Assembly (NCBI RefSeq): GCF_030384885.1 | Contig: NZ_CP128613.1 | DNA from: Escherichia coli | GTDB lineage: Bacteria; Pseudomonadota; Gammaproteobacteria; Enterobacterales; Enterobacteriaceae | DNA length: 64,000 bases | Strand: one strand, 5' to 3' | Shown: piece after piece, positions 56,301 through 62,300 of the stretch | Position numbering within the stretch: the first letter of the stretch is position 1 | Layout of the letters: the number at the start of each line of letters is the position of its first letter | Made by a program: the position numbers

Positions 56301-59300
56301 AACTTCAAAGTGCCGTTTAATTTCTACAACGTCCATTACAACAGTACGCACGTCGTCGGTACATCGGGTGGTTCAACGGACGATATGAAAGAGGCGATTG
56401 CCCTGAGCGCCACGGGGCAGTTGCAACCGTCGTTTATGGTGACGCATATCGGTGGCCTGGATGCAGTGCCAGAAACCGTTCTCAATTTACCGGATATCCC
56501 CGGTGGTAAAAAACTCATTTACAACGGCGTTACCATGCCGCTCACTGCCATTGCCGATTTTGCCGAAAAAGGCAAAACAGATCCGCTGTTTAAAGAGCTT
56601 GCGCGGCTGGTTGAGGAAACGCACGGCATCTGGAATGAACAGGCCGAGAAATATCTGCTGGCGCAATTTGGCGTTGATATCGGGGAGGCCGCGCAATGAT
56701 GTCCCTGGCGTGGCCATTATTTCGCGTTACGGAGCAGGCAGCGTTGGCTGCCTGGCCGCAAACCGGATGTGGCAACAAAAATAAAATTGATGGCCTGGCG
56801 GTCACCGCGATGCGCCAGGCATTAAACGATGTCGCTTTTCGTGGGCGAGTGGTTATCGGCGAGGGAGAAATTGACCATGCGCCGATGCTGTGGATTGGCG
56901 AGGAGGTGGGCAAAGGCGATGGGCCAGAAGTCGATATCGCGGTTGATCCCATTGAAGGTACGCGGATGGTGGCGATGGGGCAGAGCAATGCGCTGGCGGT
57001 CATGGCTTTCTCCCCTCGAGATAGCCTGTTACACGCGCCCGATATGTATATGAAAAAACTGGTTGTTAATCGGCTGGCGGCGGGCGCGATTGATCTGTCT
57101 TTGCCTCTGGCGGACAACTTGCGCAACGTGGCGAAAGCGTTAGGCAAACCGCTGGACAAGCTGCGTATGGTTACGCTGGATAAACCGCGCCTGAGTGCCG
57201 CAATTGAGGAAGCGACGCAACTGGGCGTGAAGGTTTTTGCCCTGCCGGATGGCGATGTTGCCGCCAGCGTGCTGACCTGCTGGCAGGATAATCCTTACGA
57301 TGTGATGTACACCATCGGCGGTGCGCCGGAGGGCGTGATTTCTGCCTGTGCCGTTAAAGCATTAGGCGGGGATATGCAGGCCGAGCTGATTGACTTTTGT
57401 CAGGCTAAAGGGGATTACACGGAAAATCGGCAGATTGCAGAGCAGGAACGCCAGCGTTGCAAGGCAATGGGCGTTGACGTTAACCGTGTGTACTCGCTCG
57501 ATGAACTGGTGAGGGGGAACGATATCCTCTTTAGCGCTACGGGCGTGACGGGCGGTGAGTTGGTGAATGGTATCCAACAGACGGCGAATGGGGTGCGGAC
57601 GCAGACATTACTGATCGGCGGCGCGGACCAAACGTGTAATATAATAGACTCCCTGCATTGATGGTGATCTATCGGAAGACCAATGGCGACGCTGACAGAA
57701 GATGATGTGCTTGAGCAACTGGACGCACAGGACAATTTATTGTCATTTATGAAAACTGCACATGCCATTTTGCTCCAGGGGATACGCCAGTTTCTGCCGT
57801 CGCTGTTTGTCGATAACGATGAAGAGATCGTGGAATATGCAGTGAAGCCGTTACTCGCTCAAAGCGGCCCGCTTGACGATATTGATGTTGCGCTACGTTT
57901 GATTTTTGCACTGGGGAAAATGGACAAATGGCTGTACGCCGATATCACGCACTTTTCCCAGTTCTGGCATTACCTGAATGAACAGGATGAAACGCCCGGA
58001 TTTGCCGATGACATTACCTGGGATTTTATCAGCAACGTCAATAGCATAACCCGCAATGCGACGCTCTATGACGCGTTAAAAGCGATGAAGTTCGCTGATT
58101 TCGCCGTCTGGTCAGAGGTGCGTTTTAGTGGGATGGTCAAAACGGCGCTGACGCTGGCAGTAACGACCACCTTAAAGGAATTAACGCCGTGAAAATTGAC
58201 TTAACGGTGAATGGTCTGAAGGTACAAGCACAGTACCATGTTGATGAGATAGAAAATGTACATAAACCGTTGCTGCGTATGTTGGCGGCCTTACAGACGG
58301 TAAATCCGCAGCGGCGTACCGTGGTTTTTCTTTGCGCTCCGCCGGGGACGGGTAAATCTACCCTAACCACTTTCTGGGAATATCTCACGCAACAAGACCC
58401 GGAACTACCCACTATTCAGACGCTGCCGATGGATGGTTTTCACCATTACAATAACTGGCTGGATGCGCATCAATTGCGCCCCTTTAAAGGCGCACCAGAG
58501 ACATTCGATGTGGCAAAACTGGTGGAAAATCTGCGCCAGGTAATGGAAGGGGATTGTACGTGGCCGCAGTACGATCGACAAAAGCATGAGCCTGTTGAAG
58601 ATGCGTTGCACGTTACCGCACCACTCGTCATCGTCGAAGGAAACTGGTTGTTGCTGGACGACGAGAAGTGGTGCCAGCTTGCGCAATTTTGTGATTTCTC
58701 GATCTTTATCAACGCGCCAGCTACTGCGTTGCAGGAACGACTGGTGGGGCGCAAGCTGGCGGGAGGGTTATCGCTGGCAGACGCAGAAGCCTTTTATGAC
58801 CGTACCGATGGGCCGAATGTTCGCCGGGTGCTGGAAGAGAGTCTGCCTGCAAATTTGACCTTAATGATGACCGCTACGGGTGAATATCGTCTGGTGGATT
58901 AACGTTCCTGATTACACCATCTTCCAGTCGCACCACACGAGAGAAATGACGCCGGGTAAATGCGGCGTCATGACTGATTGCTACGACGCTCGTGCCTCGC
59001 TGGCGGCACTTTTCCAGCCAGCTTTCAAACACGCTCATCCAATTTTCGTCAAAATCCCGACTCGGCTCGTCCAGCAGCAATAGCGGCGGAGAGAGTGCTT
59101 CCAGGCAGGCGACGGCGACCATCCGTCGCTGCGCACTATGCAGATCTAACGGATGCGCGCTGGCAGTGTCTGCTAACTGACAGCATTGCAGGGCAGCATT
59201 GGTACGTTGAGTGATTTCATCCGCCAGGCATTTTTGCAGTTTCAAACCAAATGCGATCTCGTCAGCGACGGTGCTGTGAAAAAGCTGGTTTTCCGCTTCC

Positions 59301-62300
59301 TGAAACAGTACGCCAATCTTTGCTGCACGTTGGCGGTTTTTCAGGTTTTTCATCGCCTGTTGTTGCAGTATAACCGTACCGGTTGTGGGCGTAAGAAGAC
59401 CTGCCATTACTCGTAACAGCGTCGATTTTCCCGCGCCATTGTCGCCGGTCAGCGCCAACCATTCACCTTGTTTGAGTTGCAGAGAAATGTCGCAAAGACA
59501 ATCCGTTGCCGCGCCAGGCCAGCGATAAGACATCTGATTTAACGTTAACATAGTGGCTGGAGCGCTCCGTTTTGCAATTGCCACGCTTGCTGGCAGTAGT
59601 TCAGGAAAGGTGTGCGATGACGTTCAAAAAGAATAATCAGCGAACCACGTTCAAACGCCCAGTGTTGTAAGCGCTGCAACAGCATTTCGCTGGCCTGCGG
59701 CGTCAGGCGACTAAAGGCTTCATCAAGAATTAATAGTTTTGGCTGCATCGCGATGGCGCAGGCGATGACCACGCGCTGTGTCTCTCCACCGGAGAGTGTT
59801 GCCGGGTGACGATGGCGCAACGGCTGGCACTCGGTCAGAGTCAGGGCGGCATCAATCCGCGCCATAATCTCCTCTTCAGCAAGACACAGATTTTCTGGCC
59901 CAAAGGCAACTTCTTCTTCCACGCTAAAGGTACAGCCGGAGAGCTGCAAATAGGGCGATTGCTGAACGAGCTGGATGGTGGCGGATTGTTCATTAAGCGG
60001 GAGATACCCAATGGGCGTACCGAGAAGCGTCCCCGTGCCGGTTATCTCTCCTGGCAGAAAGTCCGGATACCAGCCCGCCATCAGTTGCGCCAGCGTACTT
60101 TTGCCACAGCCGTTGTCGCCAAAGATGGCGACTATCCCCGGTTTGACATAGTGAAAGTCATAACAGAACGGAGGGTGCGTTGAGTGTGTCGGGCAATAGC
60201 GAAACTGTTCTAACGTAACCATATCCACGCTCCGAATTCTGCCAGCATCAGCAAGATCATGGCGTAACGTGCCACTTTTTCCAGGTTACTGTCAGGCGGT
60301 GCCCATAACGTAGTGCGCCGGTTGTGGATCCGAAATGCCCGCATATCCAGCGCCGCACCACGGATAGCCAGATCGTTTAGCGCATTGTGTGTTAGCGGAA
60401 TAATTAGCGCGGGTATAGCACGTAAACGCTGATACCAGCCCTCATCCAGCGGCACGCCACGGGCGCGCTGCGCTTCATGAATAATCGCTAATTGCCGTTT
60501 TAACTGCTCAACGACCAACAAAGGCCCGGCGAACAGATAAGCGACGCCCGGCGGCAGGCGAGAAGCAAACAAAGCGCGGATAAAACGTTGCACTGGGACG
60601 AATTGCATCCACAACTGCGAGGTTGAAACAATCGCGAGAATCCGCAGCCAGAGCGTAATAGCATGCGTCCACCGTTCTGGCGAGCGTGGCGTGCCGTTTA
60701 GCCATTCTGTCAGCCAGCCACCGTGTACCAGCCACAGTCCAGCCCCCAGCGAGAACATCAGCCAGACAACATATTTTGCCCGCCGCCGCGTGGCCTTTAG
60801 CGCAATAAGGCAGAAAAAGGTCGCCGCGCTATAGACTGTCAGTATTGTCTGTGTGGGCAGGATAAGCGTGGTGCAGGCCGCCAGCGCCCACAGCGTTAGG
60901 GATGTAAACGGATGCATTTAGCGCACGGCAGCCATTGCCGGAAAATGGCGCGTGGTGCGAATCGGCAGCTGACGCAGTAAAAGCCAGACAATCACCGCTG
61001 TAAGAATTTTATCGACCAGGTTTGCGCCTATCACCGTAATCGCCACCGACTCCACCAGGTTTTGCCCCATAGAGTGCATCCAGGCAACGAACAAATCGGC
61101 TCCGCTACCGGTGACACCGCCGAACAGCGCAGTACGCAGCGGTACAGCGACGACCGTTACTGCAAGCGTAATAATCACGCCGCTGACAACGACTTTTGGC
61201 AGGGTGCGAAACCAACCCGCTCGCGCCAGCCAACCGGCGACCAAGCCAATAACCATCGCCACGGGGGCAAAGGCGGCGGCGATCGGGTCGGTGAGCAATC
61301 CCCAGAGTAAATTGGTCAGTAAGCCGGTCAGCATCCCGATCACCGGACCAAGCAGTACCGCGCTAATAAGTGTGCCGATGGAGTCGAGAAATATAGGTAA
61401 TTTGACCATGCTGGCCAGTTGCCCGCCAATCATATTGATGGCGATAGAGATAACAATCAACACCAGTGCTTGACTGGAAAAGTGGCGACGCGCCATAAGA
61501 AAACCTCTCTGAAAGTAGTTATTTAACGGGGGAAATATGCAATTCGTCGTAACCAGAAAGCGCGCAAGGTTGGCGGCTAAACGCCAGCTCCTCAAGGCAG
61601 CCGATCACCAGTTCAAGCGTGGTCCGCACGGTACAGCCGGGCATCATATGACCGCCAAGTATCGTGCCGTGTGGATCGGAAACGCAGAGATGAAGATGTT
61701 CACCACTCTGTTCCAGTGTGCCGTTCAATGCGATGACTTCGAACTTACCGCTTAGTAGGGCCGTGTTTTCTTGCCCGGCATAGCGTAAGGCGACGTCAGT
61801 CAGACTGCCGGTACAACCTGCAATCCACGCGGCGTGGAGTTGTTGTTGCTGCGCGAAGGCGCGTAATTGGGAGAGAACTTCCTGTCCTGGGAGCAGGCGC
61901 AGCGCGTAAAAGCGTGCGGAGGAAGAATATGGGTAGGGCAATGTCATCATTGGAGTACTCCGAAACTCGGACGTATTGCGGATAATATCGACGCTGCATC
62001 AGTCATATTCTGATATAAGTCAGGGTTTGTGACGGCACAACGAAAAGATTTTGCTACGCTTATTCGTGATTCTGCAAAGTGGAATAAATTCCACAGGGGC
62101 GGGGCTGAAAACGTGACGTAAGTCAGATAATTGTCTTCTTTGACTGGACAATCATTCCTTTTATTCCACGTTTCGCTTATCCTAGCTGAAGCGTTTCAGT
62201 CGATTAAATGTTCGACAATTAACCAATCAGTCGCAGTTTGCGACAGGTAAGGTTTCCCCGGACGATTTGCTGGATTACTCTGTCTGGCAAATTTGCTCAG

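What the first reader, a model, noticed from the sequence alone, without database searches (positions are those of the whole stretch)
58874..61950. Five-gene PPC-domain + ECF-type transporter operon between yggC and epd
Five tightly packed minus-strand genes (PPC/DUF296 protein, S component, CbiQ/EcfT-like T component, canonical ABC ATPase, ATPase with degenerate signature) occupy about 3.1 kb where I recall only about 0.3 kb of intergenic DNA in K-12. The genes overlap each other and the 3' end of yggC, so this looks like a compact accessory module. The substrate is not inferable from sequence, and a PPC-domain protein leading an ECF operon is not an arrangement I know to be characterised.
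Basis: partly seen in the sequence, partly recalled or inferred. Interest (0 to 1): 0.65.

Follow-up and report, generated by a model that had tools for sequence, protein, structure and literature searches.

The report
Known island: LmiA plus ECF importer
This 3.1-kb stretch is the already catalogued E. coli "O-island 119", an old five-gene operon missing from K-12 that encodes the LmiA (PPC-domain) protein and a dedicated ECF-type importer previously predicted to salvage queuosine-type precursors. Its true substrate and the role of the PPC partner are still untested.

Summary
In detail: five intact minus-strand genes (PPC/DUF296, ECF S, CbiQ-like T, two ABC ATPases) fill 58874-61950, where K-12 MG1655 has a 284-bp yggC-epd gap. 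The module is not new. It is O-island 119 of EHEC O157:H7 (z4267-z4271). Its first gene is LmiA, published in 2020 as a PhoP-activated activator of LEE. A Salmonella orthologue 94% identical to the S component is deposited as the substrate component of the "queuosine-regulated ECF transporter" (QrtT of QrtTUVW).

It is not an insertion. The operon lies next to epd in at least nine enterobacterial genera and diverges in step with its flanks. K-12 keeps a relic of the lmiA promoter, so K-12 lost it. 61% of complete E. coli genomes carry it.

What this work adds:
- The PPC-S-T-A-A' cassette is conserved in 71 of 80 loci across several phyla.
- More distant S relatives sit beside nucleoside hydrolases, phosphorylases, ribokinase, Tgt and YhhQ-type genes.
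- The ATPase pair has one conserved degenerate ATP site.
- The PPC protein is acidic, has an invariant His3/Glu/Arg set and an acetolactate-decarboxylase-like fold.
- A conserved FNR-like class II promoter lies upstream.

Substrate and PPC function remain inferred.

The parts
61519..61950 (-). lmiA (z4267 orthologue): 143-aa PPC/DUF296 protein, first gene of the operon
   Evidence: Pfam PF03479, E=3e-27. PDB 2HX0/2NMU (Salmonella), E=6e-70. His85/87/101 have the same numbering as in PMC7667037. An invariant His3/Glu/Arg set is present in 72 cassette-linked homologues.
60918..61496 (-). ECF S component (QrtT orthologue), 192 aa
   Evidence: PF12822, E=1.8e-8. NCBIfam ECF_S_CD3073 scores 135 bits, below the 180-bit cutoff. 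It is 94% identical to the Salmonella protein deposited as 'Substrate-specific component of queuosine-regulated ECF transporter'.
60210..60917 (-). ECF T component (QrtU-type), 235 aa
   Evidence: CbiQ PF02361, E=7.5e-5. Two xRG coupling motifs, ARG 152-154 and IRG 185-187. Natural S-T fusion proteins exist in relatives.
59545..60222 (-). ABC ATPase A1 (QrtV-type): canonical signature, weakened H-loop
   Evidence: Best NCBIfam hits are ECF_ATPase_1/2. Across 68 orthologues the signature is LSGG[EQ]xQR, while the H-loop His is mostly lost.
58874..59551 (-). ABC ATPase A2 (QrtW-type): degenerate signature, canonical Walker A/B and H-loop
   Evidence: LHSAQRR aligns to LSGGQKQ. The signature is degenerate in nearly all of 70 orthologues, while DEP and SHD are kept. 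The 3' end overlaps yggC by 29 bp.
62104..62122 (-). Published PhoP footprint of the lmiA promoter (CTTACGTCACGTTTTCAGC)
   Evidence: Exact, unique match in the window. The sequence is from PMC7667037. It lies in DNA that K-12 also retains.
62040..62077 (-). Published PhoP-dependent promoter P1: -35 TTGCAG (62072-62077), -10 TAGCAAAAT (62048-62056), TSS T at 62040
   Evidence: The strings given in PMC7667037 were read off the sequence. The TSS is 90 nt upstream of the ATG at 61950.
61982..62023 (-). Predicted FNR-type class II promoter: CTGACTTATATCAG (62010-62023), 22-nt spacer, TATTAT (61982-61987)
   Evidence: The palindrome CTGA(T/C)TTATATCAG and the -10 are conserved at fixed spacing, with an unconserved spacer, in most of the 15 enterobacterial sequences aligned. 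The site centre falls at -41.5 of a start near 61975. This fits the remark that the Salmonella operon is anaerobically activated (PMC11481890). It is a prediction only.
61959..61971 (-). Conserved small hairpin UCCGA-GUU-UCGGA containing the Shine-Dalgarno GGAG of lmiA
   Evidence: Conserved across genera. One compensatory A-U to G-C change occurs in Superficieibacter. There is no Rfam match.
58600..58902 (+). 3' end of yggC, haplotype-specific: left edge of the presence/absence polymorphism
   Evidence: Identity to a module-less strain falls from 83% to 66% to 57% over 58600-58900. The C-terminal 60 residues of YggC are only 59% identical between haplotypes. E. albertii and E. whittamii share the window type.

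Best explanation
The region is O-island 119, a single operon lmiA-qrtTUVW.

Shown here:
- It encodes a PPC/DUF296 protein followed by a complete dedicated (group I) ECF importer: a PF12822 S component, a CbiQ-type T component with two xRG coupling motifs, and a heterodimeric ATPase.
- In that ATPase pair the A2 signature and the A1 H-loop are degenerate. One composite ATP site (A1 Walker motifs plus A2 signature) is therefore non-canonical, and the other (A2 Walker motifs and H-loop plus A1 signature) is the consensus site.
- The operon is ancient and vertically inherited next to epd in Enterobacteriaceae. It has been deleted from about 39% of E. coli, including K-12, which keeps a promoter relic.

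Taken from the literature: transcription starts from a PhoP-activated promoter.

Predicted here: an FNR-type class II promoter lies closer to the gene.

Inferred:
- The importer takes up a queuosine-type precursor or a related ribonucleoside.
- The PPC protein is a metal-dependent cytoplasmic partner of the transporter, either an enzyme or a ligand-binding protein acting on the imported compound.
- The reported activation of LEE in EHEC is a lineage-specific secondary effect.
For: Identity:
- The PhoP footprint matches exactly, and the -35, -10 and TSS strings of the lmiA promoter are all present.
- The 3.12-kb, five-gene description and His85/87/101 match.
- A Salmonella orthologue 94% identical to S is deposited as the S component of the queuosine-regulated ECF transporter. 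The SEED role names tie QrtTUVW to STY3230-33.

Architecture.

Cassette conservation:
- The order PPC-S-T-A-A' on one strand is found in 71 of 80 loci, from Enterobacterales, Aeromonas, beta-, alpha- and deltaproteobacteria, Synergistaceae and Chloroflexi.
- The PPC stop lies 100 nt or less from the S start, or overlaps it, in 66 of 71 loci.

Ancestry.

Substrate:
- S relatives at 40-50% identity have IU_nuc_hydro hydrolases directly upstream in 9 genome loci. The same holds for the metagenomic representatives P0139, P0147 and P0149.
- P0146 sits beside PNP_UDP.
- L078 reads RbsR-ribokinase-hydrolase-S-T-A-A-uridine phosphorylase. L082 has Tgt directly upstream of S. L075, L079 and L080 have a YhhQ-type queuosine-precursor transporter adjacent. 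L075, L080 and L081 read PPC-hydrolase-S.
- C. difficile QrtT, in the queK-qrtT-queL operon, imports preQ1, queuine and queuosine (PMC11477304, PMC11130926).

PPC as enzyme-like partner:
- R18, R56, E71, H85, H87, H101, T110, T111, E113, R126 and E136 are invariant, and D92 is 98% conserved.
- All 72 homologues are acidic, pI 4.9-6.5.
Against: - No preQ1 or other riboswitch was found in the window or in 33 related loci. The 'queuosine-regulated' label is therefore not corroborated here.
- No queuosine genes flank the enterobacterial operon.
- E. coli makes queuosine de novo and already has YhhQ.
- S scores below the curated cutoff of its nearest NCBIfam model.
- The QrtT name is itself a prediction. 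Homology of STY3230-type QrtT to the experimentally tested C. difficile QrtT was not checked by sequence here.
- Several relatives sit in general nucleoside-catabolic operons rather than queuosine-specific ones.
- LmiA has published EMSA, ChIP and footprint evidence for binding the ler promoter.
- Deletions of z4268-z4271 gave no adherence phenotype.
- A thesis cited in PMC11481890 proposes Co2+ import.
Confidence: 0.6

Rival explanations
1. LmiA is a genuine DNA-binding transcription factor. It regulates its own transporter operon and, in EHEC, ler. The transporter imports a metal such as Co2+, as suggested for Salmonella STM3071-3075.
For: - EMSA, ChIP-qPCR and DNase footprinting of LmiA on the LEE1 promoter, with complementation (PMC7667037).
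- Database names include 'DNA-binding protein' and 'putative regulator of transporter operon'.
- A His3 site could sense a metal.
- A thesis title cited in PMC11481890 proposes Co2+.
- Anaerobic induction would suit B12 synthesis.
Against: - The S component is PF12822, not CbiM/CbiN or NikM/NikN.
- The 'cobalt' label follows only from CbiQ/CbiO homology, which all ECF modules share.
- The protein is acidic, has no AT-hook or helix-turn-helix, and has an ALDC-like fold.
- The footprint needed 2.5-5 uM protein.
- The LmiA motif is absent from the window, including its own promoter.
- The cassette is conserved in phyla that have no LEE, often with the PPC stop codon overlapping the S start codon.
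Confidence: 0.15
2. The system is a general ribonucleoside scavenging importer (uridine, cytidine or purine nucleosides as carbon or nitrogen sources), not specific for queuosine. The PPC protein replaces the nucleoside hydrolase that accompanies more distant relatives.
For: - Relatives sit in operons with ribokinase, uridine phosphorylase, three tandem hydrolases, a 5'-nucleotidase and LacI/GntR regulators.
- PPC and hydrolase largely alternate as the gene upstream of S.
Against: - Three loci carry both PPC and a hydrolase.
- ECF S components are usually high-affinity, low-capacity micronutrient binders (general knowledge of the family).
- E. coli already has NupC, NupG and other nucleoside transporters.
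- Tgt and YhhQ-type neighbours point to queuosine.
Confidence: 0.2
3. The PPC protein is a regulatory or gating subunit that binds the unusually short, asymmetric ATPase pair and controls transport after translation. It does not act on the substrate.
For: - Both ATPases are short (227 and 236 aa). Solved EcfA chains are about 270-300 aa, and from general knowledge their extra C-terminal region mediates dimerisation.
- The degenerate site is conserved.
- PPC and S genes are tightly coupled.
Against: There is no interaction evidence. The invariant His3/Glu/Arg constellation looks catalytic or ligand-binding. ATPase lengths in other phyla were not reliably determined.
Confidence: 0.1
4. The module is a recently acquired horizontal island, the reading of both the first-stage reader and PMC7667037.
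For: Absent from K-12 and from about 39% of complete E. coli genomes. Listed as an O-island.
Against: - It lies next to epd in at least nine genera.
- Module versus flank nucleotide identity is 96/93% with E. albertii, 91/92% with E. whittamii and 75/78% with Salmonella.
- GC content is 0.505-0.575 in windows within the module, against 0.45-0.58 over the 2-3 kb of flank on either side.
- No mobility genes or repeats are present.
- K-12 retains the PhoP box, the TTATTCCA element and a degenerate -10 of the lmiA promoter.
Confidence: 0.04

Closest known systems
O-island 119 (z4267-z4271) of EHEC O157:H7 EDL933; LmiA (Liu et al., mBio 2020, PMC7667037)
   Same: Same locus, size (3.12 kb), gene number and order. 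The promoter strings and PhoP footprint are identical, and His85/87/101 match. 95% nucleotide identity to STEC genomes.
   Different: The paper treats LmiA as a horizontally acquired LEE regulator and leaves z4268-z4271 unexplained. Here the cassette is ancient, found across phyla and tied to an ECF importer.
QrtTUVW, the 'queuosine-regulated ECF transporter' (SEED roles defined on S. Typhi STY3230-STY3233; Rodionov et al. 2009; TCDB 3.A.1.28 from memory)
   Same: S, T and two ATPases in one dedicated operon. A Salmonella orthologue 94% identical to the window's S carries this name.
   Different: The role list names four components and does not include the PPC gene. No preQ1 riboswitch or queuosine gene accompanies the enterobacterial operon. 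Transport by this orthologue group has not been tested.
C. difficile queK-qrtT-queL queuosine salvage operon (Yuan et al. 2019, as summarised in PMC11477304 and PMC11130926)
   Same: A PF12822 S component flanked by a nucleoside hydrolase and a second processing enzyme. Loci L075, L080 and L081 read PPC-hydrolase-S.
   Different: The C. difficile S component uses the shared ECF module. Its partner enzyme is the radical-SAM QueL, not a PPC protein. Sequence relatedness to the window's S was not verified here.
CbiMNQO / NikMNQO cobalt and nickel ECF importers
   Same: A dedicated T component and CbiO-like ATPases in one operon. This is the source of the old 'cobalt transport' annotation.
   Different: The S component here is not CbiM/CbiN or NikM/NikN.
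Bacterial PPC/DUF296 structural-genomics proteins (2HX0, 2NMU, 2P6Y, 3HTN, 3HWU, 2DT4) and alpha-acetolactate decarboxylase
   Different: No function is assigned to any bacterial PPC structure. ALDC is twice the size, and no activity of that kind has been shown for PPC proteins.
Heterodimeric ABC ATPases with one degenerate nucleotide site (e.g. TM287/288, TAP1/2, CFTR; general knowledge)
   Same: A degenerate signature in one subunit is matched by a weakened H-loop in the partner, and this is conserved across orthologues.
   Different: Those are type IV exporter-fold ABC systems. This asymmetry is not a described hallmark of ECF modules, as far as I know.

Membership tests
ECF-type ABC importer, group I (dedicated module) | Small integral-membrane S component of an ECF S family | tested here: met
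   PF12822, E=1.8e-8. NCBIfam ECF_S_CD3073, E=1.5e-39.
ECF-type ABC importer, group I (dedicated module) | T component of the CbiQ/EcfT family with two Arg-containing coupling motifs | tested here: met
   PF02361, E=7.5e-5. ARG 152-154 and IRG 185-187.
ECF-type ABC importer, group I (dedicated module) | Two ABC ATPase subunits, with S, T and A genes in one operon and no extracytoplasmic binding-protein gene | tested here: met
   The flanking genes are yggC and epd.
ECF-type ABC importer, group I (dedicated module) | ATP-dependent substrate import | not testable with these tools
   Needs uptake assays.
NCBIfam NF045596 (CD3073 family S component, equivalog) | Score at or above the curated cutoff of 180 bits | tested here: not met
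   135.5 bits. All relatives tested score 100-151 bits.
QrtTUVW queuosine-precursor ECF transporter | Orthology to the name-giving Salmonella genes STY3230-STY3233 | tested here: met
   94% identity to a Salmonella protein deposited under that role name. The STY locus-tag mapping itself is by inference.
QrtTUVW queuosine-precursor ECF transporter | preQ1 riboswitch control or clustering with queuosine genes | tested here: not met
   No Rfam match in the window at E<=1 or in 33 loci at gathering score. Only distant relatives sit beside Tgt or a YhhQ-type transporter.
QrtTUVW queuosine-precursor ECF transporter | Transport of preQ1, queuine or queuosine | not testable with these tools
   Shown only for C. 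difficile QrtT (literature).
CbiMNQO/NikMNQO metal ECF importers | CbiM/CbiN or NikM/NikN substrate components | tested here: not met
   No such hit for any of the five proteins.
PPC/DUF296 domain (PF03479) | Pfam match and PPC fold | tested here: met
   [not shown]
[not shown]
[not shown]
   The motif is absent from this 64-kb window. Whether this strain has LEE was not examined.
AT-hook (AHL-type) DNA-binding proteins | AT-hook R-G-R-P motif next to the PPC domain | tested here: not met
   No RGRP in the 143-aa sequence. pI is 5.8, and all 72 homologues are acidic.
ALDC/PTD012-like Zn-His3 enzymes | Shared fold with a three-His metal site | tested here: inconclusive
   [not shown]

The most novel reading that the evidence does not exclude
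LmiA-type PPC proteins may be a previously unrecognised fifth, soluble, metal-dependent component of the QrtTUVW importer. They would be an enzyme or capture protein that processes the imported queuosine-type nucleoside or base in the cytoplasm, for example a non-radical analogue of the QueK/QueL step. On this reading, E. coli's only ECF transporter is an anaerobically induced tRNA-micronutrient salvage system, and the reported control of LEE by LmiA is indirect or a moonlighting activity.
Probability: 0.2. Interest if true: 0.75.

Novelty: already known. Interest (0 to 1): 0.38.

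Why it matters
Three strands of literature describe this same operon without citing each other:
- an EHEC virulence regulator said to be acquired by horizontal transfer (LmiA, OI-119);
- a Salmonella operon 'suggested to import Co2+';
- a comparative-genomics prediction of a queuosine-precursor ECF transporter (QrtTUVW).

Linking them has four consequences:
1. It changes the evolutionary account: the operon is ancestral and K-12 lost it.
2. It casts doubt on the cobalt label.
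3. It suggests that the primary role of LmiA is tied to the transporter.
4. 61% of complete E. coli genomes have an ECF transporter, although the K-12 literature states that ECF core components do not occur (PMC5372724). K-12 is therefore a natural null host for direct tests.

The conserved PPC partner and the conserved degenerate ATP site are concrete, testable features. They amount to refinements of a known system rather than a new kind.

Tried and rejected
- Riboswitch control: no Rfam match in window 58000-63000 at E<=1. Only tRNAs and an unrelated guanidine-II element were found in 33 related loci.
- Autoregulation through the published LmiA motif: no match with up to 3 mismatches anywhere in the window.
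- Cobalt or nickel importer: rejected as the leading idea because there is no CbiM/N or NikM/N.
- NCBIfam gave nothing for the PPC and T proteins.
- The first 46-sequence S alignment was too diverse for the genome scan. It was replaced by an 11-sequence alignment.
- PPC fusions to S or T: none among 150 representatives. The long forms are S-T fusions.
- The FNR-like site as a family-wide feature: it occurs only in Enterobacteriaceae and is absent upstream of PPC in Proteus, Providencia, Hafnia, Morganella, Aeromonas and other phyla.
- Conserved extra neighbours of the PPC-type cassette outside Enterobacteriaceae: none, apart from a small DUF3343/YedF-C-like gene in Chloroflexi and one betaproteobacterium.
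- Rodionov 2009 and Yuan 2019 are not in the held library. What they say is taken from papers that cite them or from memory, and is marked as such.
- Searches for 'CD3073' and for 'PPC domain' plus 'ECF transporter' found nothing relevant.
- The profile search with PPC returned only close relatives and added no context.

Full report
**Observation**

The ORF list shows five intact minus-strand genes between 58874 and 61950. The window is 100% identical to E. coli 2013C-4282, where RefSeq annotates the same five genes:
- PPC domain-containing DNA-binding protein, 61519-61950
- ECF transporter S component, 60918-61496
- ECF T component, 60210-60917
- two ABC ATP-binding proteins, 59545-60222 and 58874-59551

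The genes abut or overlap. T and A1 overlap by 13 nt, A1 and A2 by 7 nt. The last gene overlaps the convergent yggC by 29 bp.

Pfam supports PF03479 (E=3e-27), PF12822 (E=1.8e-8) and CbiQ (E=7.5e-5). Both ATPases score best against the ECF ATPase models. The A2 signature LHSAQRR aligns to LSGGQKQ, and A1 has LSGGETQR. K-12 MG1655 has 284 bp between yggC and epd.

**Population and ancestry**

Of 5426 complete E. coli genomes, 3316 (61%) carry the module; most of the remainder match only the flanks.

A scan of one genome per species with an S-component alignment returned 80 loci. In these, the operon lies next to epd in Escherichia coli, E. albertii, E. whittamii, Citrobacter, Klebsiella oxytoca and K. 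grimontii, Atlantibacter, Silvania, Superficieibacter, Phytobacter and Pseudescherichia, and yggC follows it wherever that gene is present. In Salmonella only the yggC side was recovered.

Module and flank nucleotide identities move together: 96/93% with E. albertii, 91/92% with E. whittamii and 75/78% with Salmonella. GC content within the module (0.505-0.575) overlaps the range of the adjoining flanks (0.45-0.58).

In K-12 and in strain C21 the intergenic DNA stays homologous to the window through three elements: the PhoP-box palindrome, a TTATTCCA element and a degenerate copy of the -10. This is a relic of the operon's promoter.

On the other side, the last 60 codons of yggC in module-less strains are only 59% identical to the window type and at most 70% identical to any other genus examined. 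E. albertii and E. whittamii share the window type.

The module-bearing state is therefore ancestral. The K-12 state is a deletion or replacement, not the reverse.

**What it is called in the literature**

The module is O-island 119 of EHEC O157:H7. It is 3.12 kb with five genes, z4267-z4271. z4267 is a DUF296 protein named LmiA, with His85/87/101 proposed as a zinc site (PMC7667037).

The published PhoP footprint CTTACGTCACGTTTTCAGC occurs once in the window, at 62104-62122 on the minus strand. The published -35 (TTGCAG), -10 (TAGCAAAAT) and transcription start (90 nt upstream of the ATG, i.e. 62040) can all be read off the sequence.

That paper reports that LmiA binds the ler promoter, with a footprint at 2.5-5 uM protein. 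It also reports that deleting z4268-z4271 has no adherence phenotype, and it attributes lmiA to horizontal acquisition.

[quoted passage not shown] It adds that the operon appears anaerobically activated (PMC11481890).

Separately, the SEED role list used by Rodionov and colleagues defines QrtT, QrtU, QrtV and QrtW as the S, T and two ATPase components STY3230-STY3233 of a 'queuosine-regulated ECF transporter' (PMC6593275 supplement). A Salmonella protein deposited under that name is 94% identical to the window's S component.

The operon is therefore lmiA-qrtTUVW. The held papers I read do not connect these three descriptions. K-12 is stated to lack ECF core components (PMC5372724), which this locus explains.

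**The cassette is far older than the Enterobacteriaceae**

In 71 of the 80 loci a PPC gene lies upstream of S on the same strand, followed by T and two ATPases or their fusions. The hosts include Proteus, Providencia, Morganella, Hafnia, Aeromonas, a Laribacter-like betaproteobacterium, Rhizobium, Brucella, Kaistia, Mesorhizobium, Paracoccus, Desulfobulbaceae, Synergistaceae and many Chloroflexi.

The PPC stop is within 100 nt of the S start, or overlaps it, in 66 of 71 loci. Flanking genes outside the five are not conserved between lineages. The one exception is a small DUF3343/YedF-C-terminal-like gene in eight Chloroflexi and one betaproteobacterial locus.

This pattern argues that the PPC protein works with the transporter. 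Most of these hosts have no LEE.

**Substrate inference**

All S proteins of this group, whatever their neighbours, match only the CD3073-family model, at 100-151 bits and below its 180-bit cutoff.

Among relatives at about 40-50% identity, the gene directly upstream of S is an inosine-uridine-type nucleoside hydrolase in nine genome loci. Notable examples:
- L078 reads RbsR, ribokinase, hydrolase, S, T, A, A, uridine phosphorylase.
- L082 has Tgt immediately upstream of S.
- L075, L079 and L080 have a YhhQ-type queuosine-precursor transporter next to the operon.
- L075, L080 and L081 read PPC, hydrolase, S.

Of eight informative metagenomic representatives, four have nucleoside enzymes in the operon:
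- P0139: hydrolase, with a 5'-nucleotidase nearby
- P0146: PNP_UDP phosphorylase
- P0147: hydrolase
- P0149: a LacI-PfkB fusion and three hydrolases

The C. difficile queK-qrtT-queL operon, whose S component imports preQ1, queuine and queuosine, has the same logic (PMC11477304, PMC11130926).

Against a queuosine-specific reading: no preQ1 riboswitch was found in the window or in 33 loci. The enterobacterial operon has no queuosine neighbours. Several contexts look like general nucleoside catabolism.

I therefore rate 'a queuosine-type precursor or related ribonucleoside' as the best inference, and Co2+ as unlikely because no CbiM/N-type component is present.

**The PPC protein**

Seventy-two cassette-linked homologues keep R18, P21, G48, S49, R56, A58, E71, L75, H85, H87, G95, H101, T110, T111, E113, F124, R126, E136 and L137 invariant; D92 is 98% conserved. 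All 72 are acidic, with pI 4.9-6.5, and none has an AT-hook.

This favours a metal-dependent enzyme or ligand-binding protein. It does not disprove the published DNA-binding data. The published LmiA motif is absent from the window, including its own promoter.

**The ATPase pair**

Across 68-70 orthologues:
- The A2 signature is degenerate in nearly all (LH[STA][AG]QRRM and others), while its Walker A, Walker B (DEP) and H-loop (SHD) are canonical.
- A1 keeps LSGG[EQ]xQR but has mostly lost the H-loop histidine.

The module therefore has one consensus ATP site and one degenerate site, conserved across phyla. T carries two xRG motifs. S-T fusion proteins exist in relatives.

**Regulation**

Alignment of the upstream region from 15 enterobacterial genomes shows a conserved palindrome CTGA(T/C)TTATATCAG (window 62010-62023). 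A non-conserved spacer of fixed 22 nt follows, then a conserved TAT(T/C)AT (61982-61987). This places the site at -41.5 of a start near 61975, which is the geometry of a class II FNR promoter. It agrees with the anaerobic activation noted for Salmonella. The site is absent outside Enterobacteriaceae.

A short hairpin containing the Shine-Dalgarno sequence (61959-61971) is also conserved, with one compensatory change. These are predictions.

**Verdict**

The finding is real, but it describes a known object. The island is catalogued, its first gene has been studied, and its transporter belongs to a named predicted family.

This analysis adds the following:
- the link between the three strands of literature
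- the direction of the evolutionary event (loss in K-12, not gain)
- conservation of the five-gene cassette across phyla
- family context pointing to nucleosides or queuosine
- the conserved asymmetric ATP sites
- a predicted FNR promoter

Substrate and PPC function remain open, which keeps a modest level of interest.

Noticed in passing
window 62186-62199 (minus strand), upstream of epd: The palindrome CTGAAACGCTTCAG is almost invariant in 15 enterobacterial genomes. It resembles a Cra/FruR operator (from my own knowledge), as would be expected for the epd-pgk-fbaA promoter.
   Followed up: no
window 62113-62126 (minus strand): The published PhoP footprint contains the palindrome TGAC-TTAC-GTCA, which looks more like a CRP/FNR-family site than a PhoP direct repeat. 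It is conserved across genera and is retained in K-12, which has no lmiA.
   Followed up: partly
window 58600-58902 versus L002/L100: The 3' end of yggC is mosaic. Module-less E. coli carry a C-terminus only 59% identical to the window type and at most 70% identical to any genus examined. Loss of the operon therefore involved replacement by foreign DNA, not a clean deletion.
   Followed up: partly
window 58100-62700 versus E. coli genomes: The window's allele is unusual. Only 3 genomes are at least 99% identical over this query (module plus short flanks), and most module-bearing E. coli are 95-97% identical. The module alone is 96% identical to E. albertii and only 90% to E. coli E69.
   Followed up: partly
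L003 8269-8952 (E. albertii NBRC 107761): The A1 ATPase gene is split into two ORFs (8269-8739 and 8749-8952). It is probably a pseudogene in this type strain.
   Followed up: no
L048, L049, L054, L065, L067, L068, L069, L071, L074: A small gene of about 120-140 aa matches the C-terminal half of selenium-metabolism protein YedF (DUF3343-like). It sits just upstream of PPC or downstream of A2 in eight Chloroflexi loci and one betaproteobacterial locus.
   Followed up: partly
L047, L056, L058, L060, L061, L082; P0153, P0170, P0178 and others: Component fusions occur. ORFs of about 690-840 aa match the ATPases in Synergistaceae, Kaistia and one Ardenticatenaceae locus, and S-T fusion proteins of 460-490 aa occur in metagenomes.
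   Followed up: partly
L088 3633-4196: In one relative, a gene with a weak hit to a putative 2-thiouracil desulfurase family (PF27735) follows the S-T-A-A operon. This hints that some family members handle thiolated nucleobases or nucleosides.
   Followed up: no
L029 4707-6394 (Hafnia paralvei): Four identical-scoring tRNA genes lie in tandem just upstream of the PPC gene.
   Followed up: no
L058 5225-5269 (Kaistia terrae): A guanidine-II riboswitch aptamer lies about 1.2 kb upstream of the PPC gene, on the same strand. The ORFs found there (4140-5039 and 5347-6261) are on the opposite strand, so its target gene was not identified.
   Followed up: no
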